From NCBI GenBank assembly GCA_964448235.1, contig CAYUWD010000003.1:17664-81663 (forward strand): a stretch of 64,000 nucleotides of DNA. The letters run 5' to 3'. The translations under genes and the position numbers were made by a program. Positions 5,590 to 48,700 of the stretch are shown one piece after another. The notes beneath the pieces are model-generated. The model was not told the DNA's origin. It searched no databases and worked only from the letters and a program-made list of their open reading frames with translations. Numbering within the stretch: the first letter of the stretch is position 1; every line of letters starts with the position of its first letter. This stretch comes from an uncultured Bacteroidales bacterium. Lineage in GTDB: Bacteria > Bacteroidota > Bacteroidia > Bacteroidales > ML635J-15.

Positions 5590-5600
5590 AATATATAGAC

Positions 5601-6515
5601 ATGAAGAAAGTATTAATATCAATAATCGCATTAGTTTGTTTGTCTACAACAGGTTTTTCACAGCAATTACCTTTGTATAGTCAGTACATGTTTAACAGAC
5701 TATTATTGAACCCTGGTGTTACAGGTAGTACTAATGCTATAGAAATAAGACTTACTGCCCGACAACAATGGGTTGGCATTGATAAAGCCCCTAGCACTCA
5801 GATAATTAGCGGTCACTTAAAGTTAAAAAATGAAACGATGGGAGTTGGAGGTGTAATATTTGCCGATAGATTTGGACCTGAATCCAGAATTGGCTTTCAG
5901 GGAAATTACGCATATATTTTACCTGTTTTTAACGAAGATGCCCGTTTAGCATTCGGTTTATCATTTCAGGTATTTCAATATCAAATGGATTACTCAAATT
6001 TTACATCTCTGGATGCTGATGATCCGGTTTTGATATACAATGTTGAAAATGCATGGTTACCGGAAAGTGATTTTGGACTATATCTATATAGTGATAAGTA
6101 TTTTGCGGGGATTTCAGCCAATCAAATGATAGAACTACCAGTAAAAATAGGTGGAGAAGAAATTGAAATGAATTCACTAATTAGACATTATCACCTTATC
6201 GGTGGATATAAATTTGCCCTTAGTGGAGATTTCGAACTAGAACCATCAACATTATTAAAAGGAACTTTCATTACTCCTTTCCAAGCTGACATTAATTTTA
6301 AAGGTATTTATAAAAAAGATTATTGGCTTGCACTTTCTTACAGAACATCAGGTGATATTATCACAATGGTTGGCTTAACATACAAAGATTTTGTTTTCGG
6401 CTTTGCGTATGATATAGTAACATCGAAGTTATCAAATTACCAAAGTGGAACTTTCGAACTAATGTTAGGATATGACATTCCGTTTGGTGACGATTCAGGA
6501 AGAAGTAGATTTTAA
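5601..6515 (+). CDS. PorP/SprF-family type IX secretion system membrane protein
   Basis: Signal peptide, then the family-typical N-terminus QQLPLYSQYMFNRLLLNPGVTG. About 300 aa of beta-barrel-like sequence. It sits 12 nt downstream of a type-B CTD cargo gene, the usual cargo/PorP pairing. Confidence 0.85.
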   Translation: MKKVLISIIALVCLSTTGFSQQLPLYSQYMFNRLLLNPGVTGSTNAIEIRLTARQQWVGIDKAPSTQIISGHLKLKNETMGVGGVIFADRFGPESRIGFQGNYAYILPVFNEDARLAFGLSFQVFQYQMDYSNFTSLDADDPVLIYNVENAWLPESDFGLYLYSDKYFAGISANQMIELPVKIGGEEIEMNSLIRHYHLIGGYKFALSGDFELEPSTLLKGTFITPFQADINFKGIYKKDYWLALSYRTSGDIITMVGLTYKDFVFGFAYDIVTSKLSNYQSGTFELMLGYDIPFGDDSGRSRF

Positions 6516-6556
6516 TTAGAATAAACAATTTGAAATAAAATAAAAACCTTATAATT

Positions 6557-8599
6557 ATGAGAAACAAATTAAACAATTCAGGATTCCCATTTGAAAAGCT
6601 TTCTAAAGGAATGCACAATATCATTTGGATTTTTAGCCTAGTAACGTTAATCGTATTTTCTAATATGACACAGGCTCAAAATGTTGGTGTAAATACTACT
6701 ACTCCTGATGCATCTGCAATGCTAGATGTAGTATCAACAACTTCAGGTATGTTGGTTCCAAGAATGACTATGGCTCAAAGAGATGCTATTACATTACCAG
6801 CAACCAGTTTATTAATTTATCAATCAGACAACACTCCTGGTTTTTACTATAACTCAGGAACCCCTGCTGCTCCTGTATGGGTAATGATTGGTGGTGGAGC
6901 TGCAGGTGAATGGACAGATGCAGGCGATTACCTTCATCCTAACGAAAACACAGATGCTCAGGTTTGGGAAGATAATGACATTTATGGATTTTACTATTCC
7001 GGTTTAGCAGATAATGCAGGTTACTTCGAAAGTACTGAAACATCTGTTGACAATACTGGTGTTTATGGAGCTTGCGACAATACGAGTGGATATGGCTTTG
7101 GAGGAATTTTTTCTGGCGGATATCTTGGAGTTGCCGGTCTTGGCGACACATTAGGTGTAAATGGTATAGTTAATAATCCTAAAGGATACGCTATTTATGG
7201 AACAAACTCTGATGCTGTTGGAACAGCAATTTTTGGAATAGGTAACGGAATAAATGGTAGCTATTTGACAAATGGTAGTGGTGTCGCAGGAAGTAGCAAT
7301 AATGTAGGTGTTTATGGATATGGAGATGCAACAGCCGAATCAAATGGCGTTTACGGCACATCTGAAGCTACTGATGGGATTGGTACTACTGGCGTAAGTG
7401 AAAATATTGGAGTTTTAGGATTAGGCGGAACAACATCCGGCTCAATTGGTGTTTATGCAAAAAGTAAAGCTTCTGACGGTATTGGAATCTTTTCGATAGG
7501 AAACAACGCAACATCATATACTGCTACTAACGGTGCTGGCGCTGTTTTTAATGGAAATGACGGCGCACATGCTTATGGAAATATTAGTACTGGAACTGGA
7601 CTAATTGCTGTTGGTAATGATGCTCCAACTATTTCTAATCTAACCGCAGGCACGGGCGTTGCCGGAACAAGTACAGTTGCTGGAGTTTATGGCTTTGGAG
7701 ATAATACCGGTGTTGAGCCCAAAGGAGTCTATGGATCTACAAACGCACTTGACGGAATAGCTGTTTTCGGAGTTAATGGTTCGATAGGTGCAAATGCTTA
7801 TGCTATATACGGACAGGTTGGTGATGGAAATGCAAACTTAGTCGATGCTGTGGCTGTAATGGGTTTTAACCGAGAACAAGATCCATTTTATGGTTTTGGT
7901 GGATATTTTTCGGCTGAATGGAGCGGTATTTATGCCGAAAGTAGAACAGGAAGCGGATATGCAGCGTCTTTTTCTGGTGACACCTATTCAACTGGTGATG
8001 TTGGAGGAGCATCTAAAAGTTTTGTAATTGACAATCCCGAAAATCCTGAAAACGAAGTACTCAGACACACTTCAATCGAATCACCTGAAGCATTAGTTGT
8101 ATATCGTGGAAAAATCAAACTTAATAACAACGGAGAAGGGATTGTAGAAATGCCTTCTTACTTCAAATCACTCACTAAAGAAAACGAAGCAACTGTTCAA
8201 ATCACTTGCGTTGGACATCCGTTTGGTATTGGTTATGAGTGGAACAACGACTTTAACTCTTTTGTTGTTTATGGTGAGGGAAATCGCGAAATCTCCTGGA
8301 TGGTTATGGCAGACAGAGATGATCCCTATATGAAAGAAAATAGAAAACCCGTAATTATTCAAAAAAATGGTGGTGATAAAGGATATAAAGTGGGCTACTA
8401 TATTCATCCCGAAGCTTATGGCAAACCAAAAGAAATGGGATATAACTACCTATGGAATCAGAAAAACAGAAATTTCCCTGCTGCGAATAAAACAACAACA
8501 TCATCAAGAACTATATATGAAGATAATAGCGAAATAATAAAAGATACTAAACGCAATCAACTCTCTAAACAAAAAACAATTCCAAATAAAAACAAATAA
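6557..8599 (+). CDS. Secreted Gly-rich fibre / beta-solenoid-like protein (tail-fibre-like architecture), function unknown
   Basis: Signal peptide MHNIIWIFSLVTLIVFSNMTQAQ; an alternative ATG at 6611 would place it at the N-terminus. N-terminal SAMLDVVSTTSGMLVPRMTMAQRDAI motif. About 330 aa of irregular G(V/I)(Y/F)G repeats. C-terminal SFVIDNPENPENEVLRHTSIESPE module. No T9SS CTD. Confidence 0.6.
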   Translation: MRNKLNNSGFPFEKLSKGMHNIIWIFSLVTLIVFSNMTQAQNVGVNTTTPDASAMLDVVSTTSGMLVPRMTMAQRDAITLPATSLLIYQSDNTPGFYYNSGTPAAPVWVMIGGGAAGEWTDAGDYLHPNENTDAQVWEDNDIYGFYYSGLADNAGYFESTETSVDNTGVYGACDNTSGYGFGGIFSGGYLGVAGLGDTLGVNGIVNNPKGYAIYGTNSDAVGTAIFGIGNGINGSYLTNGSGVAGSSNNVGVYGYGDATAESNGVYGTSEATDGIGTTGVSENIGVLGLGGTTSGSIGVYAKSKASDGIGIFSIGNNATSYTATNGAGAVFNGNDGAHAYGNISTGTGLIAVGNDAPTISNLTAGTGVAGTSTVAGVYGFGDNTGVEPKGVYGSTNALDGIAVFGVNGSIGANAYAIYGQVGDGNANLVDAVAVMGFNREQDPFYGFGGYFSAEWSGIYAESRTGSGYAASFSGDTYSTGDVGGASKSFVIDNPENPENEVLRHTSIESPEALVVYRGKIKLNNNGEGIVEMPSYFKSLTKENEATVQITCVGHPFGIGYEWNNDFNSFVVYGEGNREISWMVMADRDDPYMKENRKPVIIQKNGGDKGYKVGYYIHPEAYGKPKEMGYNYLWNQKNRNFPAANKTTTSSRTIYEDNSEIIKDTKRNQLSKQKTIPNKNK

Positions 8600-22338: not shown

Positions 22339-22851
22339 ATGAAATATTTTATTTCTTTAACTTTTGTCTTATTTACTTTGTTAGGATTTGGACAATTAGA
22401 AGTTAATCAATCTGGGATAAACACTTCCTATACAGAAGGAGAACCAGTAATAATACCTGGAACAAACATACTGATGACTCCACCAGAGCATTTTTTGGTA
22501 AGCGAATCTATTCCGGGGTTAATACATCCAGGCTCGTCAACAACAGTACAAGTACAAGAAATTATCGGAACATCATATATTATGATTCAACAAGCTATGA
22601 CACCTGAACATTTTGAAACACAAAATGTAAATTTAATTTCTGAAGAAGAAGTTAAATTAAAAAATGGAATGAATGGTGTTTTATATCTTGTTGGATTTAC
22701 CGTAAAAGGATATGACTATGAAAGGCTTATGCTTTTTGCAGGAGATTATAATAATACTATTTGGATAAATGCAAATTATCCAAAATCTGCAAAATCATTA
22801 TTGCACGATATTTTAGTAGAAAGTTTATTAACCGCACAACACATCAAATAG
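22339..22851 (+). CDS. Hypothetical secreted protein
   Basis: Signal peptide MKYFISLTFVLFTLLGFGQ; 170 aa. The stop lies 2 nt before the start of the next giant gene. Confidence 0.6.
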   Translation: MKYFISLTFVLFTLLGFGQLEVNQSGINTSYTEGEPVIIPGTNILMTPPEHFLVSESIPGLIHPGSSTTVQVQEIIGTSYIMIQQAMTPEHFETQNVNLISEEEVKLKNGMNGVLYLVGFTVKGYDYERLMLFAGDYNNTIWINANYPKSAKSLLHDILVESLLTAQHIK

Positions 22852-22853
22852 AA

Positions 22854-25800
22854 ATGATAAAAAAGTTACTAATATTTTGTTTGTTTCTTGCCATTTGGGG
22901 GATACCGGGAATATTCTCCCAAAATATTTTAGTGCATGAAATACCATATAGCACTCACGATCAGGATATGTGGGGAGCAGGAGACGCATTTAGTCTGGAT
23001 TTTGACTATGATTTATTTAATGTACAGGTAGATGAAAACTTTTCTGAAGGATGGATAGAAGAAATCCTTGGAACACAATGGGGTATAGGTGTTGAAATGG
23101 GAATGTGGATGTTTTTACGTTCTACATTTAGTATGCACGGCTTTACACTCGGTTCTGTTGATGTTGACTATCCTGTCGAAATTACTCTGGATTTTCCCGA
23201 TGATTACACTTTCGACCATGGTGAAACAGTTCCAATTCATTCTTCTTATGAAGTCCTTGATGGTTGGGCTCTTGAAACTCATTTCCCAACTGCCGGTATT
23301 ATTGCCCTTGACTTAGAATATGGTTTTGGATTAAATTTTGACATTATTGTTTGTATGGTTGATTGTGAAACAATTCCAATTATTCCAACAATTAGTATTC
23401 CTGTAGATCCATTATATACTGACCCATTGCCTCACGATTCTATTGCTATATTTTATTTAAACGGAATTACAGGCGATTGTGTATACCCATGCCTTGATGA
23501 AACAACAGGATTGCCAACTATATGCGAAGATGATTTACTTCCAATCGTTATCCCTGATTGGTTTGGAATAGGATTAACTGGAGAAATTGATATCCCATAT
23601 GTTGAAACTGACGATTGGCTTGATACAGACACTCAATGCCTACACGCACACGGACAAGACGAATGGCTTTGGTTTAATCTGAACATTATGGATTTCCTTG
23701 GATTTATTTGTGGTTTTATCCCTCCTCCTGAAGGACCAGCAATCCAAGAAGCTATAGATTTTCTCGAAGGAGGAACAATAGAATATGAAATTATTTCAGG
23801 AGTTAATGCTGTTATTGAATATTTTATTTTACACATGGATCTTCATATGTCAAGTTACATGACTCAGGATTTCTCCTTTTGCCCAACAATATTAGCAACC
23901 TTAGCTTTTGAAACGGACTTACCTTATTCCGAAACAGATCCGGAAAATGGAGATGCTATAATAGCCGAAGGGGTATCAGACACTATTACTTTTGCAATAA
24001 ATAACGACCTAAATATTACTTACCCATGTTATGAATGGGATTCAATGGAAGTATTAAGCGTAACATACAATATTACATCCGGATTTTATAATCACACTTG
24101 GGATTCAATTACTTTTGACTTTATTTTAGAAGCAATTTTCTTTTCTGTATCTATTCCATTTGACGATATTATTCCAGTTGCAGAAATGCCGGAATTTTGT
24201 ATTCCTGAAATAATTGTTGACAATGCCGATTTAGGTATTACTCAAACAATAAATGCTTGCTCACCAGCAATCCCTACTCCTGCTATAAGTATGGAAGAAT
24301 ATATGCCTGTTGGATACCAAGAAAGCTTGTCTAAAGGTGGAGGTTCTAGTGAAAATCAAGCTAAAGATCTCGAATTCTGTTTTCCTACAAACTGTGAACC
24401 ACTAATTTCAGAAACTTTCCCATTAGGATATATTCCACTCACATGGTATGATCAAGAATGGGATTTACAAGGATTTGTACAAGACACTGTATTTTCAGGA
24501 ACTTGGTTATTTCCATTACCTGAGTTAGATATAGAAATTACCGGACAAGATGTTTTATGTTTTGGTGACACAAGCGGTATTGTTTCTGTAACAGCAATAA
24601 ATAGCTCCCCGGACTTCACATGGGAATATTCTTGGGGAACAATTAATACTCATGCTGGACCAACAGACGAAATAACAGTCCCATCAGGATATTATTATGT
24701 TACTTTAACAGATACTTACGGATGTAAAGTTTTTGGAGAAATGAATATTGCTGATGAAAATCCACCTTTATTATCTAATTTATATGCTGACGATGTTCTC
24801 TGTGCAGGAGAACCAACAGGAAATTTATATTCATATGTATCAGGAGGAGTACCTCCATATTCCTATTTATGGGAACCCAGTAATAGCACAGACCCCAATC
24901 CCACAGGAGTATATGCAGGCATGCATGTACTAACAATTACAGATGCTGTAGGTTGTGAACATATTGACTCTGTTTTTATTGACGAACCAGACGCACCAAT
25001 ATCTATGCCTTTTAACGATATCGGACATGTTTCTTGTTATGGATTAAGTGATGGACATATTGATATTGAAATTGATGGTGGAACTCCTCCATATTATTAT
25101 ATTTGGTCAAATGGACAATTAACACAAGATCTTTTAAATATTCCTGCCGGACTATACTCCGGAACAGTAATAGATTCTCATGACTGTCTATTTGAATATG
25201 AATTTGAAGTCACACAACCAGAACCATTAGAATTAACAACATATACTCAAGATGTGCTCTGTTATGGTCAAAATACCGGAACAATTGATCTTGTTGTACA
25301 AGGAGGAACCCCTCCATATGAATATGAATGGAATAATGGTGATGAAACACAAGACCTATTAGGCGTTTTTGCAGGAATCTATATAGTTACTGTTACTGAT
25401 GCTCATGGTTGTATAAATTATACAATGGTTCAAATCGACCAACCTAATTTACCTCTTCATGGAGATATCACTCCTACTCATGTAAGATGTTTTGGAGAAG
25501 GAAATGGAATTGCAGACTTAAATGTATTTGGAGGTACCCCTCCATATTATTTCAGTTGGAGTAACGGAGAAATATCAGAAGATATTTACAACTTGATCCC
25601 TGGTATTTATAGTGTTACTATTAATGATGGCCATGGATGTATTGCCGGAGATACAGTTCAAATATTCCAACCTGACTCACCAATGTTTGGAACAATAACT
25701 GGAAATAATATTACTTGTAATGGAGGGGATGATGGAAATATATATATTGATGTAACCGGAGGAATTCCACCATATCATTATGAATGGAATACCGGAAGCT

Positions 25801-27152
25801 GGCAAGAAGATCTTATTGGTGTAGAAGCAGGCTCTTATTATGTTACTGTTACCGATGAAAATTATTGTCATTACAATATGAATATTGAACTAACAGAGCC
25901 TGAAGAGTTTTATATTCAACCTATGGATAATCCAACAATTTGCTACGGACAAAATGCAGAAATAGGAATTGGAATAATTACAGGTAGCATCCCTCCATAT
26001 ACCATAGAGTGGAGTAACAACGATGTGGGAATGACAACTACTGTCACCCCAACTGAAACTACAACCTATTCTGCAGTTGTTATTGATGCTATGAATTGCA
26101 TTTCCGAAGAAATAGAAGTAACGGTTAAAGTACTTGATTCTATCACAATGAAAGTTTTTGCTTCTGAAGACACTGTATGTCCAGGAGAAATCGTTGACTT
26201 TGATGTTATAATTGAAGGTGGAGGTGTTTCTGGTAATCAAGTTAGAGTAAATGATTCTATTATGGATTTACCTCTTTCAGTTAATGTATTTAACGACACA
26301 ATATTTGAATTTTTAATTTATGACGCTTGTAATTTCGATAGTGTCAAAATAGAATATCCTTTATATACTTATCCTTTACCTCCTGTTGACATTACTGCAG
26401 ACAAAACAAATGGATGTACACCTCTTACTGTTCAGTTTTACGAAAACAGTCAAGACATTGGACAAAGATATATTTGGAATTTTGATGATGGCGATTTTGA
26501 AAATCTTTCATTTGATAAAAACCCAATTCATACTTTTTATAATGCTAGAACTTATCACGTTGGTCTCGAAATCATTTCAGCAGAACAGTGTAGCATTGAT
26601 ACAACTATTGCTATTACTGTATTTCCTATCCCAACAGCTGAGTTTAGAGCAAATGAAACCAATGTTACAATGGCAACACCTGTAGTATATTTTACAAATT
26701 ATACTGAAGGAGGATTCTTTTATAATTGGAATTTTGGAGATGGAAGTGCAAGTACTGCTCCTAATCCAAGTCATACTTTTTCTCTACCAGGAACTTATCA
26801 CGTAAATATGGTAACAACTTCTCTTTATGGTTGTGTTGATTCTACTGGTGTTGATATTTTTGTCTCTAATGAATTAGCAGTATATGCCCCTACAGCATTT
26901 ACTCCAAATCATGATGAACTCAATGAAACATTTAAAGTTATTGTAGATGGTGTAGATTCTGAAACATATTCATTATCTATTTATAATCGATGGGGAGAAA
27001 CCGTATTCTTCTCTGAAAACTACGAAGAAGAATGGAATGGTAGACGAGAAGAAGAAGAATGCCCAGAAGGTGTTTATGTATGGATACTTACTTTCGTTGA
27101 CCTATACGGAAATGAACATTATGAAACAGGACAGGTTACTCTTATAAGATAA
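22854..27152 (+). CDS. Giant T9SS cargo: unknown N-terminal region, SprB-type repeats, two PKD-like domains, type-B C-terminal sorting domain
   Basis: Start placed at the ATG at 22854 (MIKKLLIFCLFLAIWGIPGIFSQ signal peptide). SprB repeats have the form C(F/Y/A)G...G......GG.PPY.Y.W. PKD-like NFDDGD and NFGDGS...HTF..PGTY segments. CTD: FTPNHDELNETFKV...YNRWGETVF...GVYVWILT...GQVTLIR. Confidence 0.85.
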   Translation: MIKKLLIFCLFLAIWGIPGIFSQNILVHEIPYSTHDQDMWGAGDAFSLDFDYDLFNVQVDENFSEGWIEEILGTQWGIGVEMGMWMFLRSTFSMHGFTLGSVDVDYPVEITLDFPDDYTFDHGETVPIHSSYEVLDGWALETHFPTAGIIALDLEYGFGLNFDIIVCMVDCETIPIIPTISIPVDPLYTDPLPHDSIAIFYLNGITGDCVYPCLDETTGLPTICEDDLLPIVIPDWFGIGLTGEIDIPYVETDDWLDTDTQCLHAHGQDEWLWFNLNIMDFLGFICGFIPPPEGPAIQEAIDFLEGGTIEYEIISGVNAVIEYFILHMDLHMSSYMTQDFSFCPTILATLAFETDLPYSETDPENGDAIIAEGVSDTITFAINNDLNITYPCYEWDSMEVLSVTYNITSGFYNHTWDSITFDFILEAIFFSVSIPFDDIIPVAEMPEFCIPEIIVDNADLGITQTINACSPAIPTPAISMEEYMPVGYQESLSKGGGSSENQAKDLEFCFPTNCEPLISETFPLGYIPLTWYDQEWDLQGFVQDTVFSGTWLFPLPELDIEITGQDVLCFGDTSGIVSVTAINSSPDFTWEYSWGTINTHAGPTDEITVPSGYYYVTLTDTYGCKVFGEMNIADENPPLLSNLYADDVLCAGEPTGNLYSYVSGGVPPYSYLWEPSNSTDPNPTGVYAGMHVLTITDAVGCEHIDSVFIDEPDAPISMPFNDIGHVSCYGLSDGHIDIEIDGGTPPYYYIWSNGQLTQDLLNIPAGLYSGTVIDSHDCLFEYEFEVTQPEPLELTTYTQDVLCYGQNTGTIDLVVQGGTPPYEYEWNNGDETQDLLGVFAGIYIVTVTDAHGCINYTMVQIDQPNLPLHGDITPTHVRCFGEGNGIADLNVFGGTPPYYFSWSNGEISEDIYNLIPGIYSVTINDGHGCIAGDTVQIFQPDSPMFGTITGNNITCNGGDDGNIYIDVTGGIPPYHYEWNTGSWQEDLIGVEAGSYYVTVTDENYCHYNMNIELTEPEEFYIQPMDNPTICYGQNAEIGIGIITGSIPPYTIEWSNNDVGMTTTVTPTETTTYSAVVIDAMNCISEEIEVTVKVLDSITMKVFASEDTVCPGEIVDFDVIIEGGGVSGNQVRVNDSIMDLPLSVNVFNDTIFEFLIYDACNFDSVKIEYPLYTYPLPPVDITADKTNGCTPLTVQFYENSQDIGQRYIWNFDDGDFENLSFDKNPIHTFYNARTYHVGLEIISAEQCSIDTTIAITVFPIPTAEFRANETNVTMATPVVYFTNYTEGGFFYNWNFGDGSASTAPNPSHTFSLPGTYHVNMVTTSLYGCVDSTGVDIFVSNELAVYAPTAFTPNHDELNETFKVIVDGVDSETYSLSIYNRWGETVFFSENYEEEWNGRREEEECPEGVYVWILTFVDLYGNEHYETGQVTLIR
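24525..26132 (+). repeat. About seven tandem ~76-aa SprB-type coding repeats
   Basis: Successive units start DIEITGQDVLCFGD, LYADDVLCAGE, IGHVSCYGL, YTQDVLCYGQ, PTHVRCFGE, GNNITCNGG and NPTICYGQ. Each has GG(T/V/I)PPY and a late conserved Cys. Confidence 0.75.
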
Positions 27153-27250: not shown

Positions 27251-28543
27251 ATGAAAAATAATTTACCACTCATCCAATATGCTAATCTAAAAGACAAAGT
27301 AGTTTTAGTCAGAGTAGATCATAATGTTGTTAAATCAGGATTAATTCATGACCCTTATAGAATAGATGCTACAATAGGAACACTATTTCACATATTAGCA
27401 AAAGGAGGAAAGATTATTCTCATGACACATGTGGGACGTCCAAAAAACAAAAATACAGGTGAAATAACAATAGATAATAAAACATCTGTAATGCCTATTG
27501 TAAAATATCTAAGCAATAAATTACATATCAATATTGAAGTTCCTGAATTTTACTCACATGAGAATAAAGGTTATCTTAGTATTGAAACAAATATTAACCA
27601 CTCAATAAAAAAGCTTAAAAATAGCGAAATTGATGCTATTTACTTACCAAATACCAGATGGTTTATGGGAGAAGAAGCTGAAGCTGAAGAAATGGATAGG
27701 TTTGCTAACCAACTTGCTGGATTAGCAGATATCTACATTAATGATGCTTTTGGAAGTTGGCAACCTCATGCTTCAACAATCGGAATAAACAAGTATCTTC
27801 CTTCGTATGCTGGATTTTTAATGCAAAAGGAAATAAAGAATCTGGAAAGGCTATACAATGCTGATAAACCTTTTCTTGCTGTTGTTGCCGGTAGTAAATT
27901 TGACACAAAAATTGAACCGCTGTATGCTTTACTGAAAAAAGCAGATAATCTTATATTGGGGGGAGTAATGTATAATGCATATTTATGTGCAAAATATGGA
28001 ATTTCTATTAAAGGTGTAGGTGAAAAAGATATTAAACTTGCCGGTGAATTCGTTGAATTTGCAAAAAAATATCCAAATAAGATTGTAGAGCTACCATTTA
28101 TTGTAGAATCTGATGTCTTAGGTTCAAAAGAAACCGGAAAATATCGGGTTCATGATATCAGAAAACTAAAATCGGGATATTCTTTAAATTATATTCTTGA
28201 TGTATCCCCAGAATCTTTTGAAGATGATCATGTAAAGGACGTATTTCATAGTGCCAAAACGGTATTCGTTAATGCTGTAATGGGATTTACACCACATTTT
28301 AATGATGGAACAATCGCTTTAGATACTTTAATTGATGAGAATCCTGAAGCTGTAAAATTATATGGAGGAGGAGATACAATGCAGGAGTTAAAACGACTTT
28401 TACCAGGATTATATATCATGGCACTGGATAGCCCAAAATACTATATTTTTACAGGTGGTGGAGCCGTATTAAAAGCAATCGAACAGAATACTCATCTTGG
28501 AATTGAACCTATTGCGGAATTAATAAAAAGAAAAGGAGACTAA
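27251..28543 (+). CDS. Divergent phosphoglycerate-kinase-family protein (PGK-like paralog with altered substrate-site motif)
   Basis: PGK-like VLVRVDHNVV...DPYRI...ILMTHVGRPK, AGSKFDTKI, GGGDT and FTGGGAVL. The canonical FGTAHR is replaced by FGSWQPH, and GVFE by GFTPHF. Confidence 0.7.
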   Translation: MKNNLPLIQYANLKDKVVLVRVDHNVVKSGLIHDPYRIDATIGTLFHILAKGGKIILMTHVGRPKNKNTGEITIDNKTSVMPIVKYLSNKLHINIEVPEFYSHENKGYLSIETNINHSIKKLKNSEIDAIYLPNTRWFMGEEAEAEEMDRFANQLAGLADIYINDAFGSWQPHASTIGINKYLPSYAGFLMQKEIKNLERLYNADKPFLAVVAGSKFDTKIEPLYALLKKADNLILGGVMYNAYLCAKYGISIKGVGEKDIKLAGEFVEFAKKYPNKIVELPFIVESDVLGSKETGKYRVHDIRKLKSGYSLNYILDVSPESFEDDHVKDVFHSAKTVFVNAVMGFTPHFNDGTIALDTLIDENPEAVKLYGGGDTMQELKRLLPGLYIMALDSPKYYIFTGGGAVLKAIEQNTHLGIEPIAELIKRKGD

Positions 28544-32215: not shown

Positions 32216-34603
32216 TTAAAGTCTAGTTCTTATAGCCTTTAAGCTAGGAAGTTCTTTACCTTCAATATATTCTAACAAAGCCCCTCCGGCAGTTGAGACA
32301 TAACTTATTTTGTGGGCTAGCCCATATTTGTTTAATGCAGCAATACTATCACCTCCTCCAACAAGAGAAAATGCCCCAAAATCTGTAGCTCTGGATACCG
32401 CAAGAGCAATTTTAATTGTTCCATTACAAAAATGATCCATTTCAAAAACTCCCATAGGACCATTCCATAAAAGAGTATTTGATTTTTCTATTATTTTTGC
32501 AAATGTTTCAGCAGTTTTTATTCCTATATCCAATCCCATCCAAGATTTTGGAATCTCATTTATTTTACAATGTTTTATTCTGGCATTATTATCAAATTTG
32601 TCTGCAATAATACAATCTATTGGCAAATATAACTTAACATCTGTTTTCATTGCTTGCTCTAAAATATCTTTTGCAACAGGAATATAATCTTCTTCAACAA
32701 GAGATTCTCCAATATTACCTCCCATAGCTTTAATAAAAGTAAAAGCAATTCCACCACCAATTATTAGGTTATCAACCTTTTCCATCAAAGCTCGAATTAT
32801 ATCTATTTTTGTGGACACTTTTGATCCTCCTATTATTGCAGTAAAGGGTTTCTCTCCTTTATAAAGAACCCGATTAATATTATTTATTTCACTTTCCACA
32901 AGATATCCAAGCATTTTATCTTCCGGAAAATATTTTGCAATCATATAAGTAGATGCATGAGCACGATGTGCGGTTCCAAACGCATTCATAATATATACAT
33001 CCCCTAATTTTGCAAGTTTTGCTGCAAACTCCTCATCATTTTCTGTTTCCATTGAGTTAAACCTCAAATTTTCTAATATCATTACTTCTCCAGGTTGAAG
33101 ACTTTTTGACAATTTATCTGCTTCAGCACCAACACAATCACTGGCAAATTTTACTTCTGTTTCAAGTATTGTCGACAAATAAGGAACAATATGTTTAACA
33201 GAGAATTTTTCAACAACTTTTCCTTTTGGTCTTCCAATATGAGTCATCAATATTACAGCACCACCATCGGTAAGTATTTTTCTTATTGTTGGAATAGCTG
33301 TAACTATTCTTGTATTATCAACAATTTCAAATTTATCGTTTAATGGAACATTAAAGTCTACACGCATCAACACCTTTTTGCCATAAAAATTATAATCATC
33401 TATACTAAATGATTCAATAATTGCTTTTATAGAAGGCAAATTTTTCTTTTCGAAATACTCAAGCAAAGCTCCTCCTGCAGAACTTATATACGATATTTTA
33501 TGTGCAAGACTATATTTATTAATTGCAGCCGTTGTATCACCACCTCCTACAACTGAATAAAGGCCTTTATCTGTTGCTCTTGCAATTGACAAGGCCAATT
33601 TTAGTGTTCCATAAGCAAAATGTGACATTTCATATACCCCAAGAGGGCCATCCCATAATAACGTTTTAGAATTTTCTACAATTTCAGCAAATAAATCAAC
33701 GGTTTTTATTCCAATATCAAGAGCCATCCACTCATCAGGGATTTCAGAAAACTCACAATGTTCTATATTTGCATCATTGCCATTTTTATCTGCAATGATA
33801 CAATCCACAGGTAATTGTATATTCACATTAAATTTTTCTGCGTTTTCTAAAATTCTCTTTGCAACAGAAACATACTCATCTTCCACCAATGAATTACCCA
33901 CATTATATCCTTTTGCCTTAGCAAATGTATAGGCAATTCCTCCTCCAATAAGCAAATTATCTATTTTAGGCATCAATGCTTCAACAATTCCAATCTTAGT
34001 AGTAACCTTATCTCCCCCTATCATTAGAGTAAATGGAGATTCTGAGCCTTTAACTAACTTATCAAGTTTTTTAATTTCACTTTCAAAAACATATCCAAAC
34101 ATTTTATCGTAAGGAAAGTACTTTGCTATAGCAGAAGTCGAAGAATGATTTCTATGTGCTGTTCCAAAAGAGTTATTTACATAACAATCTCCAAGTTTAG
34201 ACAACTTTTCTGCAAAAATTTCATCAGCCTCAAGTTCTCCTTTATAAAATCGAAGGTTCTCAAGTAACATAATATCTCCTGGTTTTAAGTCTTGAGCCTT
34301 CTTATATGTTTCTTCTGATAGAGGATCTTCGCAAAAATTTATTTTGCGTCCTATGAGTTTTTCTACATATGGTAAAATATTTTTTAATGATCTCTTTTCT
34401 ATGTACCTACCTTTGGGTCGCCCCCAATGAGTTAATAATATAATTGATCCATTTTCAGATAAGATTTTTTGAATTGTAGGTAATGATAGCCTTATTCTTG
34501 TATCATCAACCAAATCATATTCATCACTTGTTATTGGAATATTAAAATCCACTCTCAATAAAACCCTTTTGCTATCAAAATTATAAGAATCTAAGTTATT
34601 CAT
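32216..34603 (-). CDS. pgk: Tandem-duplicated phosphoglycerate kinase (two complete PGK modules fused in one ORF)
   Basis: aa 1-398 and 399-795 each carry RVDFN(I/V)P, TH(W/I)GRPKG, ENLRF, FGTAHR, GG(D/S)KV(T/S)TKI, LW(D/N)GP(L/M)GV(Y/F)EM, GGGD and AGGALLEY. The junction ...LPSIKAIIES|FSIDDYNFYGKK... (nt 33409/33410) has no stop and no Met. Confidence 0.9.
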   Translation of the reverse strand: MNNLDSYNFDSKRVLLRVDFNIPITSDEYDLVDDTRIRLSLPTIQKILSENGSIILLTHWGRPKGRYIEKRSLKNILPYVEKLIGRKINFCEDPLSEETYKKAQDLKPGDIMLLENLRFYKGELEADEIFAEKLSKLGDCYVNNSFGTAHRNHSSTSAIAKYFPYDKMFGYVFESEIKKLDKLVKGSESPFTLMIGGDKVTTKIGIVEALMPKIDNLLIGGGIAYTFAKAKGYNVGNSLVEDEYVSVAKRILENAEKFNVNIQLPVDCIIADKNGNDANIEHCEFSEIPDEWMALDIGIKTVDLFAEIVENSKTLLWDGPLGVYEMSHFAYGTLKLALSIARATDKGLYSVVGGGDTTAAINKYSLAHKISYISSAGGALLEYFEKKNLPSIKAIIESFSIDDYNFYGKKVLMRVDFNVPLNDKFEIVDNTRIVTAIPTIRKILTDGGAVILMTHIGRPKGKVVEKFSVKHIVPYLSTILETEVKFASDCVGAEADKLSKSLQPGEVMILENLRFNSMETENDEEFAAKLAKLGDVYIMNAFGTAHRAHASTYMIAKYFPEDKMLGYLVESEINNINRVLYKGEKPFTAIIGGSKVSTKIDIIRALMEKVDNLIIGGGIAFTFIKAMGGNIGESLVEEDYIPVAKDILEQAMKTDVKLYLPIDCIIADKFDNNARIKHCKINEIPKSWMGLDIGIKTAETFAKIIEKSNTLLWNGPMGVFEMDHFCNGTIKIALAVSRATDFGAFSLVGGGDSIAALNKYGLAHKISYVSTAGGALLEYIEGKELPSLKAIRTRL

Positions 34604-34642: not shown

Positions 34643-34650
34643 CAAACTTA
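34643..34650 (-). promoter_or_regulatory. Candidate -7 box (TAAGTTTG on the minus strand) for the tandem PGK gene
   Basis: Plus-strand caaactta, 40 nt upstream of the ATG at 34603. Confidence 0.3.
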
Positions 34651-34809
34651 GCACCTTTAAATAAAAAATCAATGATTTTTTTATGTTTTTTTAGCATATT
34701 CAAAAATATTTATTATCATTTTCTCTTATCTTAATTATTTTAAAGTTTTACATATTTTATTCTTTTTAAATGCTTTAAAAAAATAGCTTTAATTCTCTAA
34801 GACTTTTAC

Positions 34810-47321: not shown

Positions 47322-47327
47322 TACAGT

Positions 47328-47380
47328 TTTGTGGATGGATTTGGATGCTTGCAACCACGAATAAAAAATTGCTAAAAGTC
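47328..47380 (+). promoter_or_regulatory. Candidate SAM-II/SAM-V-class pseudoknot riboswitch in the metK leader
   Basis: P1: uuuGUGG (47328-34) pairs with CCACgaa (47355-61). Hairpin loop contains GGAUUUGG and GCUUGCAA. The 3' tail AAAAAAUUGCUAAAAGU pairs UUGC with GCAA and AAGU with GCUU, giving an H-type pseudoknot. As I recall it, this resembles the SAM-II consensus GAUUU...GCUU...AAAGCUAAAA. Confidence 0.45.
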
Positions 47381-47437
47381 GTCTGGCCAATATCTAATAA
47401 GTCCACAACTATTTATAACATTATAAAATTTATTAAT

Positions 47438-48700
47438 ATGAACTATTTTTTTACATCAGAATCCGTATCTGAAGGACATCCAGATAAAGTTTCTGATCAA
47501 ATCTCAGATGCTATTTTAGACGAATTTATGGCATTTGATTCACATTCAAAAGTTGCTTGTGAAACAATGGTTACAACAGGTCTTGTTGTAGTTGCAGGAG
47601 AAGTTAAATCGACATCTTATGTTGATGTCCAAGAAGTTACACGTAAAGTCGTAAACGAAATAGGCTATACAAAAGGAGAATATCGTTTTGATGGAAATTC
47701 TTGTGGTGTTCTTTCTGCTATTCATGAGCAATCTCCTGACATTAATCAGGGTGTTGTTAAAGGAGAAGGCCTACACAAAGAACAAGGCGCAGGCGATCAA
47801 GGGATGATGTTTGGGTATGCTTGTAAAGATACTGACGATTACATGCCATTACCTCTTGATTTGTCACATAGAATCCTTCAAGTTCTTGCAGATATCAGAA
47901 AAGAAGGCAAAGAAATGACTTATTTACGCCCTGATTCAAAATCACAAGTAACAATAGAATATAATGCAAATAATATTCCCGTAAGAATCGACACTATCGT
48001 TGTTTCTACTCAACATGATGATTTTGACAACGATGAAATAAGAATGTTAAATAAAATCAAAGAAGATATTAAAAAGATTTTATTACCAAGAGTAATTAAT
48101 GATTTACCTAAAAGAATAAAATCATTGTTCAAAGATGATTACATATTACATGTAAATCCGACAGGAAAATTCGTTATTGGAGGACCTCATGGAGATACCG
48201 GATTAACTGGTCGCAAAATCATCGTTGACACATATGGTGGAAAAGGGGCTCATGGTGGAGGTGCTTTTAGTGGGAAAGATCCTTCAAAAGTTGACAGATC
48301 TGCTGCTTATGCAGCAAGACATATTGCAAAAAATCTTGTTGCTGCTGGAGTTGCGAATGAAATACTCATCCAACTTGCATATGCAATTGGAGTTGCCGAA
48401 CCTGTAGGTGTATATACAAACACTTATGGATCTGCAAACATAGATATAACCGATTCGCAAATAGCAGATAAAATAAAGTCTATCTTTGACCTTAAACCTG
48501 CCGGGATAGAAGACAGACTAAAACTCAGAAATCCAATATATAAAGAAACTGCTTCTTATGGACACTTTGGAAGAAGTCCAAAATTTGTAAAAAAACACTT
48601 CGACTCTCCATATCAAGGTTCTAAAAACATTGAAGTAGAATTATTTACTTGGGAAAAACTCGATTATGTAGATATTATAAAAAAAGAATTCGGGATTTAG
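47438..48700 (+). CDS. metK: S-adenosylmethionine synthetase
   Basis: Start at the ATG at 47438 ([25 protein letters not shown]). [12 protein letters not shown] and [19 protein letters not shown] motifs. Confidence 0.97.

What the first reader, a model, noticed from the sequence alone, without database searches (positions are those of the whole stretch)
32216..34603. One ORF encoding two complete phosphoglycerate kinases fused head-to-tail
PGK is normally a ~400-aa monomer whose two lobes close over the substrates. Here a single 795-aa ORF holds two full PGK modules (aa 1-398 and 399-795). Each keeps the 3-PG-site motifs (RVDFN.P, H.GRPKG, ENLRF, FGTAHR) and the nucleotide-site motifs (GG.KV.TKI, GP.GV.EM, GGGD, AGGALLEY). 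The junction ...LPSIKAIIES|FSIDDYNFYGKK... (nt 33409/33410) has no stop, no Met and almost no linker. It is therefore not two adjacent genes. The halves are clearly diverged: I counted 55 identities in the first 117 aligned residues by hand. That argues against an assembly duplication and for an old duplication-fusion with both halves under selection. The first half is the more derived (HWGRPKG, NNSFGTAHRNHSS, SSAGG). I do not know of a described tandem PGK-PGK enzyme; the fusion I do know of is PGK-TIM in Thermotoga.
Basis: partly seen in the sequence, partly recalled or inferred. Interest (0 to 1): 0.75.

Follow-up and report, generated by a model that had tools for sequence, protein, structure and literature searches.

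The report
Conserved fused double phosphoglycerate kinase
One real gene encodes two complete copies of the glycolytic enzyme phosphoglycerate kinase joined end to end; this old fusion is conserved in a group of uncultured Bacteroidales, is not described in the papers I could search, and resembles the duplication-fusion that made 100-kDa hexokinases.

Summary
Window 32216-34603 (minus strand) is one 795-aa ORF with two full PGK modules (aa 1-398 and 399-795). The modules are 58% identical and joined without a linker, stop or Met.

It is not an artefact. An independent assembly is 100% identical in nucleotide sequence. At least 120 protein clusters (60-88% identity) and about 20 GTDB species, nearly all labelled Bacteroidales, Marinilabiliales or Bacteroidota MAGs, share the architecture with an invariant junction length.

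Both modules keep the 3-PG-binding basic patch and the catalytic residues, and both are under strong purifying selection (dN/dS about 0.04-0.11). The N-module evolves about 1.6 times faster. In this subclade it has fixed changes at nucleotide-site and domain-closure positions (N336D, A214D, L63W, F342Y).

Further points:
- The gene sits where single-pgk relatives keep pgk, divergent from holB.
- A second, independent double-PGK lineage exists next to tpiA.
- N and C halves group by sublineage, not by position, so they appear to evolve in concert.
- A divergent third PGK-like gene lies 3.7 kb away.
- NCBI often annotates only the C-half.
- I found no paper describing a PGK-PGK fusion.

Verdict: real, and a new variant of a known enzyme. 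Interest is moderate.

The parts
32216..34603 (-). Complete ORF of the fused double phosphoglycerate kinase (795 aa plus stop codon at 32216-32218)
   Evidence: ORF. (PF00162 twice, 941.5 bits). (100% nucleotide identity in the independent assembly L074). (at least 120 full-length homologous clusters).
33410..34603 (-). N-module (aa 1-398): a complete PGK, and the faster-evolving copy
   Evidence: full-length alignment to 1PHP and 1VPE, 360 bits. R36, H59, R62, R118, R151, K199, K203, E325 and D356 are present; accelerated rate, but dN/dS is only 0.08.
32219..33409 (-). C-module (aa 399-795): a complete PGK, and the conservative copy
   Evidence: about 400 bits to 1VPE and 1PHP. R432, H455, R458, R514, R547, K595, K599, N714, E721 and D752 are present; dN/dS 0.039; nearly all single PGKs align best to this half.
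33392..33427 (-). Junction (aa 393-404, KAIIES|FSIDDY). The C-terminal helix of module 1 runs directly into the N-terminal segment of module 2 with no added linker.
   Evidence: sequence; no stop or Met. (length invariant across the family). (AF2: helix 390-396, about 4 residues of coil, short helix 401-403; pLDDT about 69-84); the N-module aligns to the last residues of 1PHP, and the C-module aligns from residue 4 of 1VPE.
33650..33652 (-). Codon for D318, the N-module equivalent of human PGK1 Asn336 (contacts the ADP beta-phosphate and is needed for domain closure). Here it is Asp.
   Evidence: D in 31 of 38 members of this subclade's N-halves; N in 97-100% of all other PGK groups; role of Asn336 (PMC2441801, PMC3900376).
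34010..34012 (-). Codon for D198, the N-module equivalent of human Ala214 (next to catalytic Lys215; contacts the nucleotide ribose). Here it is Asp.
   Evidence: D or N co-occurs with D318 in this subclade's N-halves. Ala214 contact listed in PMC2441801.
34424..34426 (-). Codon for W60 (motif HWGRPKG), the N-module equivalent of human Leu63 in the 3-PG-binding loop
   Evidence: W or R in most N-halves of this subclade; L in 82-95% of the other groups.
34643..34650 (-). Candidate Bacteroidota-type -7 promoter element (TAnnTTTG), 47 nt upstream of the ATG
   Evidence: motif scan. A second copy lies at 34701-34708 (-105). None occurs in the roughly 500 nt before the junction. This is a motif match only, not evidence of function.
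27251..28543 (+). Linked third PGK-family gene (430 aa). It is a divergent paralog and not part of the fused enzyme.
   Evidence: PF00162, 283 bits; about 30-35% identity to PGKs; a remodelled active site that is invariant in 120 homologs; orthologs lie immediately downstream of the double PGK in L015, L016, L018 and L078.

Best explanation
This is the organism's own pgk gene after an ancient in-frame tandem duplication. It makes a single-chain 'covalent dimer' of about 88 kDa with two complete hinge-bending PGK modules.

**Shown**
- The architecture is real and is conserved across a clade of uncultured Bacteroidales (in the broad sense).
- Both modules are full PGK folds.
- Both modules keep the 3-PG / 1,3-BPG basic patch (R38, H62, R65, R122, R170, D23, N25) and the phosphoryl-transfer residues (K215, K219, D374, T/S375, E343).
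- Both modules are under strong purifying selection.
- All halves form one clade whose nearest relatives are single-domain PGKs; single-domain Bacteroidales PGKs are at most about 55% identical to the query.
- The gene lies divergent from holB, as a single pgk does in a Flavobacteriaceae genome.

**Inferred**
- Each module catalyses 1,3-bisphosphoglycerate + ADP <-> 3-phosphoglycerate + ATP.
- The linker has zero added length, and the C-terminal helix of PGK packs back onto its own N-domain. The two substrate-binding N-domains should therefore be held side by side while the two nucleotide-binding C-domains swing.
- The fusion would be a covalent analogue of the homodimeric PGKs of some archaea and of C. 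glutamicum. It guarantees 1:1 production of two isoforms that can then specialise.
- In the window's subclade the N-module is specialising. It has fixed N336D, A214D/N, L63W/R, F342Y and T393S, which are positions that bind the ADP phosphates or ribose or relay domain closure. Its nucleotide handling or closure behaviour probably differs from that of the conservative C-module.
- Family-wide changes at hinge-pathway residues (G394A and S398L in both modules) suggest altered hinge dynamics.
- The junction equals 'C-terminal tail minus its last residue' followed by 'N-terminus minus Met'. This fits a one-step intragenic tandem duplication from codon 2 to the penultimate codon.
For: **Architecture and reality**.

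**Conservation**
- At least 120 clusters, all about 794-800 aa.
- About 20 GTDB species carry a full 2.4-kb match.
- Invariant junction length.
- Only 4 of 120 members have a Met at the junction.

**Fold**
- AF2 mean pLDDT 86.9.
- Foldseek TM-score to PGK structures up to 0.95, RMSD 1.7 A. No PDB chain covers more than half of the model.

**Residues**. **Selection and rates**.

**Clade structure**: all 240 halves are monophyletic against 116 single-PGK representatives in 50/50 bootstraps. In GTDB there is a clean gap: doubles are at least 62% identical to the query and singles at most about 55%.

**Positional orthology**: holB lies divergent from pgk in the window, L010, L078 and the single-pgk locus L057.

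**Independent parallel**: the P0123 family is also fused without a linker and sits directly upstream of tpiA.

**N-module shift**. Residue roles come from PMC2441801, PMC3900376 and PMC7729029.

**Oligomeric PGK precedents**: PMC7729029.
Against: - No biochemical, transcript or protein evidence is available.
- AF2 gives no confident inter-module arrangement. pTM is 0.59 and the five models range from 72 to 87 in mean pLDDT. The 'side-by-side N-domains' picture is therefore geometric inference only.
- I could not scan the whole genomes. A separate conventional pgk elsewhere in these genomes is not excluded. None is present in the 64-kb window, and no second canonical hit appeared for any double-PGK MAG in the pattern-based GTDB scan. 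That scan is weak negative evidence.
- N336D plus A214D put two acidic residues at the nucleotide-phosphate site of the N-module. This could mean reduced or lost catalysis rather than tuning.
- Two metagenome assemblies carry single G>T nonsense changes in the N-module (L010 codon 378, L073 codon 287). If these are real variants they would hint that the N-module is dispensable.
Confidence: 0.62

Rival explanations
1. Hexokinase-I-like division of labour. The conservative C-module is the only real catalyst. The N-module, at least in this subclade, has become a regulatory or ligand-sensing pseudo-enzyme, or a kinase with altered nucleotide or substrate specificity, that modulates the C-module.
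For: - The N-module evolves 1.6 times faster.
- It is 5 percentage points further from outgroup PGKs.
- N336D, A214D/N, L63W/R, F342Y and T393S are fixed in 31 of 38 members of the subclade. These are positions that bind ADP or relay domain closure.
- Precedent: in 100-kDa hexokinases I and III only the C-half is catalytic, while in HK II both halves are active (PMC2972215).
Against: - The N-module still has every basic-patch and phosphoryl-transfer residue: R36, H59, R62, R118, R151, K199, K203, E325, D356, T357.
- Its dN/dS is only 0.08.
- In the larger part of the family (group A) the N-halves carry none of these changes and are 71-79% identical to their C-halves. The shift is therefore subclade-specific and is not the reason for the fusion.
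Confidence: 0.25
2. The protein is not the housekeeping glycolytic enzyme. It is part of a specialised system together with the linked divergent PGK-like paralog, and in some genomes with a PGM/PMM-family mutase. It would act on another phospho-acid or serve a non-glycolytic role.
For: - The PGK-like gene lies immediately downstream on the same strand in L015, L016, L018 and L078, followed in L078 by a PGM/PMM gene.
- It lies within 7 kb of the double PGK in the window, L001, L002, L004, L010 and L070.
Against: - Both modules keep the exact 3-PG and nucleotide residues of canonical PGK.
- The nearest relatives in the tree are single-domain PGKs.
- The gene occupies the holB-pgk position.
- The PGK-like gene also occurs with no double PGK within 10 kb (L079-L083).
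- Several double-PGK loci with 10-kb flanks lack the PGK-like gene (L005, L014, L017).
Confidence: 0.08
3. Only the C-terminal half is made, from an internal start at the junction as NCBI's ~400-aa gene models imply. The upstream half would be an untranslated remnant, or the two halves would be produced separately.
For: NCBI entries of 395-401 aa start exactly at the junction on contigs where other gene callers predict 794-797 aa. A few members have an ATG at the junction, for example 'KAIMETHSIDD'.
Against: - The N-half is an intact, in-frame, selected PGK (dN/dS 0.08) across at least 120 clusters.
- 116 of 120 members have no Met near the junction.
- In the window the nearest in-frame ATG after the junction is codon 413, inside a conserved beta-strand. 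No TAnnTTTG motif lies in the roughly 500 nt before the junction, while two lie upstream of the true ATG.
- The NCBI models substitute M for an internal Ile codon. This looks like homology-guided start picking.
Confidence: 0.03
4. Assembly or sequencing artefact: a collapsed or chimeric tandem repeat, or two adjacent genes joined by a missed stop codon.
For: Some other database 'double PGKs' do look like artefacts or very recent events. Their halves are 97-100% identical, and three of the four are on ~3-kb contigs (P0442, on a 57.6-kb contig; P0448; P0447; P0471). Plant gene models of 865-909 aa probably merge neighbouring genes.
Against: - The halves are only 63% identical in DNA, with saturated synonymous sites.
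- An independent assembly has the identical sequence.
- The same junction is found in about 20 GTDB species and at least 120 clusters.
- GC content is the same as in the rest of the window (0.32).
Confidence: 0.01

Closest known systems
Canonical monomeric phosphoglycerate kinase (PF00162, EC 2.7.2.3; e.g. G. stearothermophilus 1PHP, T. maritima 1VPE)
   Same: Each module is a full-length PGK, 43-48% identical to 1PHP and 1VPE. The fold matches (TM-score up to 0.95). All substrate-binding and catalytic residues are present, apart from the N-module's N336D and A214D.
   Different: - Two modules sit in one polypeptide with no linker.
- Hinge-pathway residues G394A and S398L, plus D164N and S61T, are changed in both modules family-wide.
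- PGK is described as 'generally monomeric', about 45 kDa (PMC7729029).
PGK-TIM fusion of Thermotoga (fus gene; NCBIfam NF010569 / PRK13962)
   Same: A PGK module is covalently fused at its C-terminus to another glycolytic enzyme module. It is the only bacterial PGK fusion discussed in the PGK review.
   Different: The partner here is a second PGK, not TIM. There is no PF00121 match. The NCBIfam model is matched only over positions 4-391 of 645. It nevertheless passes its cut-off (943.7 against 883 bits) because two PGK copies add up. That is an annotation trap.
Non-covalent oligomeric PGKs (homodimers of Pyrococcus woesei, Methanothermus fervidus, P. horikoshii 2CUN and C. glutamicum; Sulfolobus tetramer)
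   Same: Two or more PGK units work as one particle. Dimerisation has been linked to stability (PMC7729029). The fused protein would be a covalent version of such a dimer.
   Different: The subunits here are covalently joined and have diverged (45-79% identity), so they can specialise. The organisms have about 30% GC and give no sign of thermophily. Whether the inter-module geometry resembles any of those dimers could not be tested.
100-kDa mammalian hexokinases I-III (duplication and fusion of a 50-kDa hexokinase)
   Same: A glycolytic two-lobed kinase was duplicated and fused head to tail, and the halves then diverged. In HK II both halves are active; in HK I and III only the C-half is (PMC2972215). 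In the double PGK the C-half is likewise the conservative copy and the N-half is the diverging one.
   Different: The enzyme family and fold are unrelated, and the organisms are eukaryotic rather than bacterial. No regulatory role has been shown for the PGK N-module. This is an analogy of evolutionary route, not family membership.
Second bacterial double-PGK lineage (P0123 family, 797-799 aa, about 69% GC, locus L077)
   Same: The architecture is the same, with a zero-length linker and the same junction geometry (tail minus last residue plus N-terminus minus Met). Both modules have canonical motifs.
   Different: - It arose independently: it is only 38-43% identical to the Bacteroidales family, and its own halves are 72% identical to each other.
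- Its orthology is clean and position-wise (m1-m1 87% against m1-m2 72%).
- It lies directly upstream of tpiA.
- It is a small family, with 7 clusters.

Membership tests
Phosphoglycerate kinase (PF00162 / EC 2.7.2.3) | Full-length match to the PGK profile above the curated cut-off | tested here: met
   two stretches, each covering about 1-379 of 379 profile positions; 941.5 bits against a cut-off of 27.
Phosphoglycerate kinase (PF00162 / EC 2.7.2.3) | 3-PG / 1,3-BPG binding residues in the N-domain (D23, N25, R38, H62, R65, R122, R170; human numbering) | tested here: met
   present in both modules (D19/D416, N21/N418, R36/R432, H59/H455, R62/R458, R118/R514, R151/R547). They are 97-100% conserved in 120 N-halves and 120 C-halves. 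The residue list is confirmed by PMC3900376.
Phosphoglycerate kinase (PF00162 / EC 2.7.2.3) | Nucleotide-binding and phosphoryl-transfer residues in the C-domain (K215, K219, N336, E343, D374, T375) | tested here: inconclusive
   The C-module has all of them (K595, K599, N714, E721, D752, S753). The N-module has K199, K203, E325, D356 and T357, but position 336 is Asp (D318) and position 214 is Asp (D198). The effect on activity is unknown.
Phosphoglycerate kinase (PF00162 / EC 2.7.2.3) | Two-lobed hinge-bending fold | tested here: met
   AF2 mean pLDDT 86.9. Foldseek TM-score (normalised by target length) 0.88-0.95 to 1PHP, 3Q3V, 1VPE and 2IE8.
Phosphoglycerate kinase (PF00162 / EC 2.7.2.3) | Catalysis of 1,3-BPG + ADP <-> 3-PG + ATP | not testable with these tools
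   Needs an enzyme assay of the full-length protein and of single-module knockouts.
Bifunctional PGK/TIM (NCBIfam NF010569, PRK13962) | A triosephosphate isomerase domain C-terminal to the PGK domain | tested here: not met
   no PF00121 match; the model is matched only over positions 4-391 of 645. The cut-off is passed only because two PGK copies sum.
Duplicated-and-fused kinases with a regulatory half (hexokinase I/III type) | One half has lost catalytic residues or activity and binds a regulator | tested here: inconclusive
   No catalytic residue is lost in either half. The N-half of this subclade has N336D, A214D and related changes. Activity and ligand binding are not testable here.
Oligomeric (dimeric) PGKs | A defined interface between two PGK units | tested here: inconclusive
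   pTM 0.59 and variable models, so no confident inter-module packing. Coordinates and predicted error were not available for contact analysis.

The most novel reading that the evidence does not exclude
The fusion has created a regulated or asymmetric PGK from an enzyme classically regarded as a simple, non-allosteric monomer. In this reading the N-module, with its remodelled ADP-phosphate and domain-closure residues, senses a nucleotide or metabolite, or uses a different phosphoryl donor. It would control the conservative C-module through the rigid zero-linker junction, repeating in bacteria the hexokinase I/II story. The family offers natural 'before' forms (group A, halves 71-79% identical) and 'after' forms (this subclade). 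The two halves also appear to have been repeatedly homogenised by intragenic gene conversion. The linked, highly constrained PGK-like paralog may be a third member of the same functional unit, with a new substrate.
Probability: 0.2. Interest if true: 0.75.

Novelty: new variant of a known kind. Interest (0 to 1): 0.55.

Why it matters
- **Enzymology.** PGK is the textbook monomeric hinge-bending enzyme. Of the fusions covered by the 2020 PGK review, the bacterial one is PGK-TIM. A conserved single-chain double PGK adds a third glycolytic kinase, after hexokinase and phosphofructokinase (the latter from my own knowledge), to the enzymes remodelled by duplication and fusion.
- **A natural test system.** Some members have two near-equivalent modules. 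Others have an N-module carrying specific changes at the ADP and domain-closure residues N336, A214 and T393. This is a ready-made series for asking how specialisation or allostery arises after fusion, and how two hinge-bending units tethered without a linker influence each other.
- **Annotation.** NCBI models often keep only the C-half. The PGK/TIM NCBIfam model passes its cut-off spuriously. Pathway reconstructions for these abundant uncultured anaerobic Bacteroidales may therefore be subtly wrong.
- **Molecular evolution.** The lineage-wise co-clustering of the N and C halves is a possible case of concerted evolution inside a single gene.

Tried and rejected
- **Full-length MAFFT alignment of 118 doubles**. 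It first timed out and then mis-registered about 17 rows by one module because of the internal repeat. I replaced it by explicit splitting at the second RVDFN motif and by alignment A1.
- **Four-taxon informative-site counts** to date the duplication relative to the main split. There were too few sites (2-3 positional against 3-4 lineage), so the deep order is unresolved. Only the G1/G2 comparison gave a signal (8 against 1).
- **Search for recent gene-conversion tracts**. The long exact runs (17-38 nt) all lie on invariant motifs, and third positions are saturated. I found no recent tracts.
- **The faint precomputed PF06962 (rRNA methylase) label** on many family members. It was re-scored at 22.1 bits, below the 22.7 cut-off, over about 40 residues. 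I treat it as spurious.
- **Internal promoter or start at the junction**. Not supported.
- **Other 'double PGKs' as evidence of commonness**. Those with halves 97-100% identical were set aside as probable artefacts or very recent duplications. Plant models were set aside as probable merged neighbouring genes.
- **Inter-module contacts from the AF2 model.** Neither coordinates nor predicted error are exposed. Only pLDDT and pTM were usable.
- **Organism name.** All named sources say only 'Bacteroidales / Marinilabiliales / Bacteroidota bacterium' MAG. I found no cultured representative.
Full report
**1. The observation**

The minus strand of the window carries one ORF at 32216..34603. It has an ATG start and encodes 795 aa, about 88.3 kDa.
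- Pfam finds PF00162 (PGK) twice, each time over essentially the whole profile. Total score is 941.5 bits, E = 4e-284.
- The halves aa 1-398 and 399-795 align over 393 residues with a single gap. They are 58% identical and 79% similar, E = 1e-178.
Overall identity is 228/395.
- The junction ...LPSIKAIIES|FSIDDYNFYGKK... lies at codons 398 and 399 (nt 33410-33412 and 33407-33409). It has no stop and no Met.

**2. It is not an artefact**
- The two halves are only 63% identical in DNA.
- Third codon positions at identical amino acids match in 53% of cases, so synonymous sites are saturated.
- The longest exact shared run is 11 nt, and the gene's GC content equals that of the window.
- The exact protein is in the public collection (P0390).
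- A Logan assembly of a different run (L074) is 100% identical over all 2388 nt.
- An ENA assembly (L073) differs by three substitutions. One of them, GAA>TAA at codon 287, splits its gene call into 286 + 503 aa. That break is inside the N-module and far from the junction.

**3. Distribution**
- A search of 5.8 billion clustered proteins returned 2917 hits with E <= 1e-30. All of the best 120 are double PGKs, almost all 790-810 aa, at 59-88% identity over about 100% of the query.
- In a library of 1.84 billion representatives clustered at 50% identity, the whole family collapses to one representative, P0006. The best single-domain PGKs are 52-54% identical to the C-half.
- Among GTDB species representatives, about 20 MAGs carry a full 2.4-kb match at 62-87% identity. 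Nearly all are labelled Bacteroidales, Marinilabiliales or Bacteroidota. One is labelled Ca. Delongbacteria, but its neighbours look Bacteroidales-like.
- Single-domain pgk genes of other Bacteroidales match at 55% or less. There is a clean gap between the two groups.
- Two closed or near-closed contigs of 4.60 and 3.94 Mb carry the gene.
- The junction has the same length in about 100 correctly registered rows of the 118 aligned. Only 4 of 120 have any Met near it.

**4. Are both modules intact?**
- Both halves align end to end with bacterial PGK structures. The N-half scores 360 bits and the C-half about 400 bits against 1PHP and 1VPE. No PDB chain is longer than 511 aa.
- The AF2 model built on a 51-sequence alignment has mean pLDDT 86.9. 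Its modules superpose on PGK crystal structures with TM-scores up to 0.95 (RMSD 1.7 A). No PDB chain covers more than half of the model.
- Across 120 N-halves and 120 C-halves, the 3-PG / 1,3-BPG residues (D23, N25, R38, H62, R65, R122, R170) and the transfer residues (K215, K219, E343, D374, T/S375) are conserved in 94-100% of sequences (97-100% for all except K215 in the C-halves, 94%).
- Window numbering of these residues:

| Human PGK1 | N-module | C-module |
|---|---|---|
| R38 | R36 | R432 |
| H62 | H59 | H455 |
| R65 | R62 | R458 |
| R122 | R118 | R514 |
| R170 | R151 | R547 |
| K215 | K199 | K595 |
| K219 | K203 | K599 |
| E343 | E325 | E721 |
| D374 | D356 | D752 |

. The human numbering of these positions is confirmed for most of them by PMC3900376, PMC2441801 and PMC7729029.
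- Nei-Gojobori dN/dS among unsaturated pairs is 0.080 for the N-half and 0.039 for the C-half in the query's subclade. In the other group it is 0.106 (N-half) and 0.145 (C-half), on 3 usable pairs.
- Neither half is decaying.

**5. Asymmetry**
- The N-half of the query's subclade is about 46% identical to outgroup PGKs. The C-half, and both halves of the rest of the family, are about 51% identical.
- Its dN is 1.63 times that of the C-half.
- In 31 of 38 members of the subclade the N-half has fixed N336D (D318 here). This co-occurs with A/S214 to D/N (D198), L63 to W/R (W60), F342Y and T393S.
- Asn336 is N in 97-100% of every other group.
- Published structures place Ala214 at the ribose, Lys219 at the alpha-phosphate and Asn336 at the beta-phosphate of ADP (PMC2441801).
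- Asn336, with Arg38, Lys219 and Glu343, is reported as essential for domain closure. It starts the ADP-to-hinge relay through Gly371/372 and Ser392/398 to Gly394. Thr393 relays the BPG signal (PMC3900376).
- The N-module's changes therefore concentrate on nucleotide-phosphate binding and closure signalling, and they are then conserved. I read this as a functional shift rather than decay, but a loss of activity cannot be excluded.
- Family-wide, both modules carry G394A and S398L (STGGGAS to STAGGAL), D164N and S61T. The nearest single-domain PGKs lack these changes.
- Asp218, the partner of the Arg65/Arg170 salt bridges that stabilise the closed form (PMC7729029), is Thr or Ser here. The same is true of about 30% of single PGKs, including the nearest ones.

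**6. Origin**
- In an NJ tree of 240 halves, 116 single-PGK representatives and two PDB sequences, all halves form one clade in 50/50 bootstraps. The sister group consists mainly of single-domain PGKs such as P0126, P0127 and P0129.
- The gene lies divergent from holB, followed by PSP1, gldH and a trmB-like gene, in the window, L010 and L078. A Flavobacteriaceae MAG with a single 395-aa pgk has the same divergent holB-pgk arrangement.
- This supports in-situ duplication of the resident pgk.
- The junction equals the C-terminal tail minus its last residue followed by the N-terminus minus Met. Compare ...KAIRTRL* and MNNLDSYNF with KAI-IES-FSI-DDYNF. A single intragenic tandem duplication from codon 2 to the penultimate codon would produce this. 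That is inference.

**7. An unexpected pattern**
- N and C halves are not reciprocally monophyletic (0/50; 0/200).
- Instead, the N and C halves of the same sublineage group together: G2 in 200/200 bootstraps, G1 in 153/200 and the query's G3 in 87/200.
- Within-protein N/C identity ranges from 45 to 79%, with a median of 71%.
- Informative-site counts give 8 lineage sites against 1 positional site for G1 versus G2. They are uninformative deeper in the tree.
- No recent conversion tracts exist.
- Three explanations are possible:
  - Ancient intragenic gene conversion after a single fusion. I favour this because of the invariant junction and because no single-domain gene appears within the clade.
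  - Repeated re-duplication.
  - Lineage-specific compositional convergence on a star-like tree.
- I could not separate these.

**8. Other double PGKs**
- P0123 (797 aa, 69% GC) and six related clusters form a second, independent lineage. Its halves are 72% identical to each other, orthologous modules are 87% identical, and it is only about 40% identical to the Bacteroidales family.
- It has canonical motifs and the same linker-free junction geometry. It lies directly upstream of tpiA.
- Several other 'doubles' have halves 97-100% identical, three of the four on ~3-kb contigs. I treat them as artefacts or very recent events.
- Plant gene models of 865-909 aa are probably merged neighbouring genes.
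- One 1918-aa protein with testis-type THEG repeats has four PGK-like stretches.

**9. Expression signals**
- Two Bacteroidota-type TAnnTTTG motifs lie 47 and 105 nt upstream of the ATG. None lies in the roughly 500 nt before the junction.
- The nearest in-frame ATG after the junction is codon 413.
- These are motif matches only.

**10. Annotation and literature**
- Sources name these proteins 'phosphoglycerate kinase' or 'hypothetical protein', or leave them unnamed.
- On several contigs NCBI's models are 395-401 aa and begin exactly at the junction. In one case an internal Ile codon is replaced by M (P0399); in others the model starts at a junction Met or replaces a different residue. Other callers predict 794-797 aa on the same contigs. 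Full-length nr entries also exist, for example HKL08832.1 and MEJ5266952.1.
- The NCBIfam PGK/TIM equivalog passes its cut-off (943.7 against 883 bits) although only its PGK part is matched.
- The 2020 PGK review lists PAS-PGK, PGK-CNB and PGK-TIM fusions, and dimeric or tetrameric PGKs, but no PGK-PGK fusion.
- Four further full-text searches found nothing. The library lacks most subscription journals, so this is absence of evidence within that library only.

**11. The third PGK gene**
- Window 27251..28543 (+) encodes a 430-aa PF00162 protein scoring 283 bits. It is 27-35% identical to ordinary PGKs and to either half.
- Its 120 closest homologs are at least 71% identical to it and share invariant, remodelled motifs: RVDHNV, DPYRID, THVGRPK, YLPNTRWF, NDAFGS-WQPHAS, VAGSKFDTKI, VNAVMGF and YGGGDTMQE.
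- It thus keeps R38, H62, R65, R122, K215, K219, N336 and D374/T375. It has lost H169/R170 and the GPxGVFE element, including E343.
- It lies immediately downstream of the double PGK in L015, L016, L018 and L078, and within 7 kb in the window, L001, L002, L004, L010 and L070.
- It also occurs with no double PGK within 10 kb.
- It is not a conventional pgk. The rest of the window is ordinary Bacteroidota chromosome and holds no other glycolytic gene.

**12. Verdict**
- The feature is a genuine, ancient, conserved PGK-PGK fusion. It is most likely the clade's housekeeping PGK, with two competent active sites and a specialising N-module in this subclade.
- It is a new variant of a known enzyme. 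It is present but unrecognised in databases and unreported in the literature I could search.
- Interest is moderate (0.55). It would be higher if the modules prove functionally coupled or differentiated.

Noticed in passing
window 27251-28543 (+): A third PGK-family gene (430 aa; PF00162, 283 bits), 27-35% identical to any ordinary PGK. It belongs to a tightly conserved family: at least 120 clusters, at least 71% identity, invariant motifs FGS-WQPHAS, YLPNTRWF and VNAVMGF. The family has lost H169/R170 and E343 but keeps K215, K219 and GGGDT. It is often adjacent to the double PGK (L015, L016, L018, L078), though not always (L079-L083). It is probably an enzyme with a different substrate.
   Followed up: partly
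protein clusters of P0016, P0055 and P0058 (e.g. HOK38766.1, MDA3910341.1, HOE03591.1, MBP7462700.1): NCBI gene models on double-PGK contigs are often only 395-401 aa. They start at an internal codon exactly at the junction, so the in-frame N-module is left unannotated. Full-length nr entries also exist (HKL08832.1, MEJ5266952.1).
   Followed up: yes
window 32216-34603 versus NCBIfam NF010569: The 'bifunctional PGK/TIM' equivalog model passes its curated cut-off (943.7 against 883 bits) although only model positions 4-391 of 645 are matched and there is no TIM domain. Two PGK copies sum to a false pass.
   Followed up: yes
family-wide: N and C halves cluster by sublineage, not by position (G2 200/200 and G1 153/200 bootstraps; all-N and all-C 0/200). 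Intra-protein N/C identity varies from 45 to 79%. This suggests ancient intragenic gene conversion, repeated re-duplication or compositional convergence.
   Followed up: partly
L077 8001-10394 (ENA ERZ21831019 ctg33840l): An independent double-PGK lineage (P0123 family; 797-799 aa; 69% GC; halves 72% identical). It lies directly upstream of tpiA and has the same linker-free junction geometry.
   Followed up: partly
L010 codon 378 of the double PGK; L073 codon 287: Single in-frame stops in two metagenome assemblies, both G>T changes. In L010, GGA>TGA replaces a conserved Gly in SSAG*ALLEY. In L073, GAA>TAA. They are likely consensus errors or rare variants, and neither is at the junction.
   Followed up: partly
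window 47325-47385 (+): A SAM-II long-loop riboswitch (RF01726, 52.9 bits) lies just upstream of metK. The mechanical ORF call 47345-48700 overlaps it, so the true metK start is probably further downstream.
   Followed up: no
L078 7450-12727: On a 4.6-Mb contig the order is trmB-like, gldH, PSP1 and holB on the minus strand, then double PGK, PGK-like and a PGM/PMM-family mutase on the plus strand. In the window's subclade a TonB-dependent receptor and a PKD/T9SS-tail protein are inserted, and the PGK-like gene is inverted.
   Followed up: partly
P0131 (1918 aa) and P0124 (1031 aa): Other multi-PGK proteins in the representative library. P0131 has four PGK-like stretches plus a THEG (testis haploid-expressed) repeat, so it is presumably a eukaryotic sperm or flagellar protein. 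P0124 has two diverged modules behind a 180-aa leader.
   Followed up: no
L016 (JAQIDD010000218.1, labelled Candidatus Delongbacteria): This locus carries the Bacteroidales-type double PGK, the adjacent PGK-like gene and a Bacteroidales-like TonB receptor. The cause could be mis-binning or horizontal transfer.
   Followed up: no
window 508-8599 and 22339-27152: Two large type IX secretion cargo genes (CHU_C/SprB-repeat proteins of 1693 and 1432 aa) with a PorP/SprF gene. The trio of a 170-aa ORF, SprB and the PGK-like gene is conserved in distant Bacteroidales (L079-L081).
   Followed up: no
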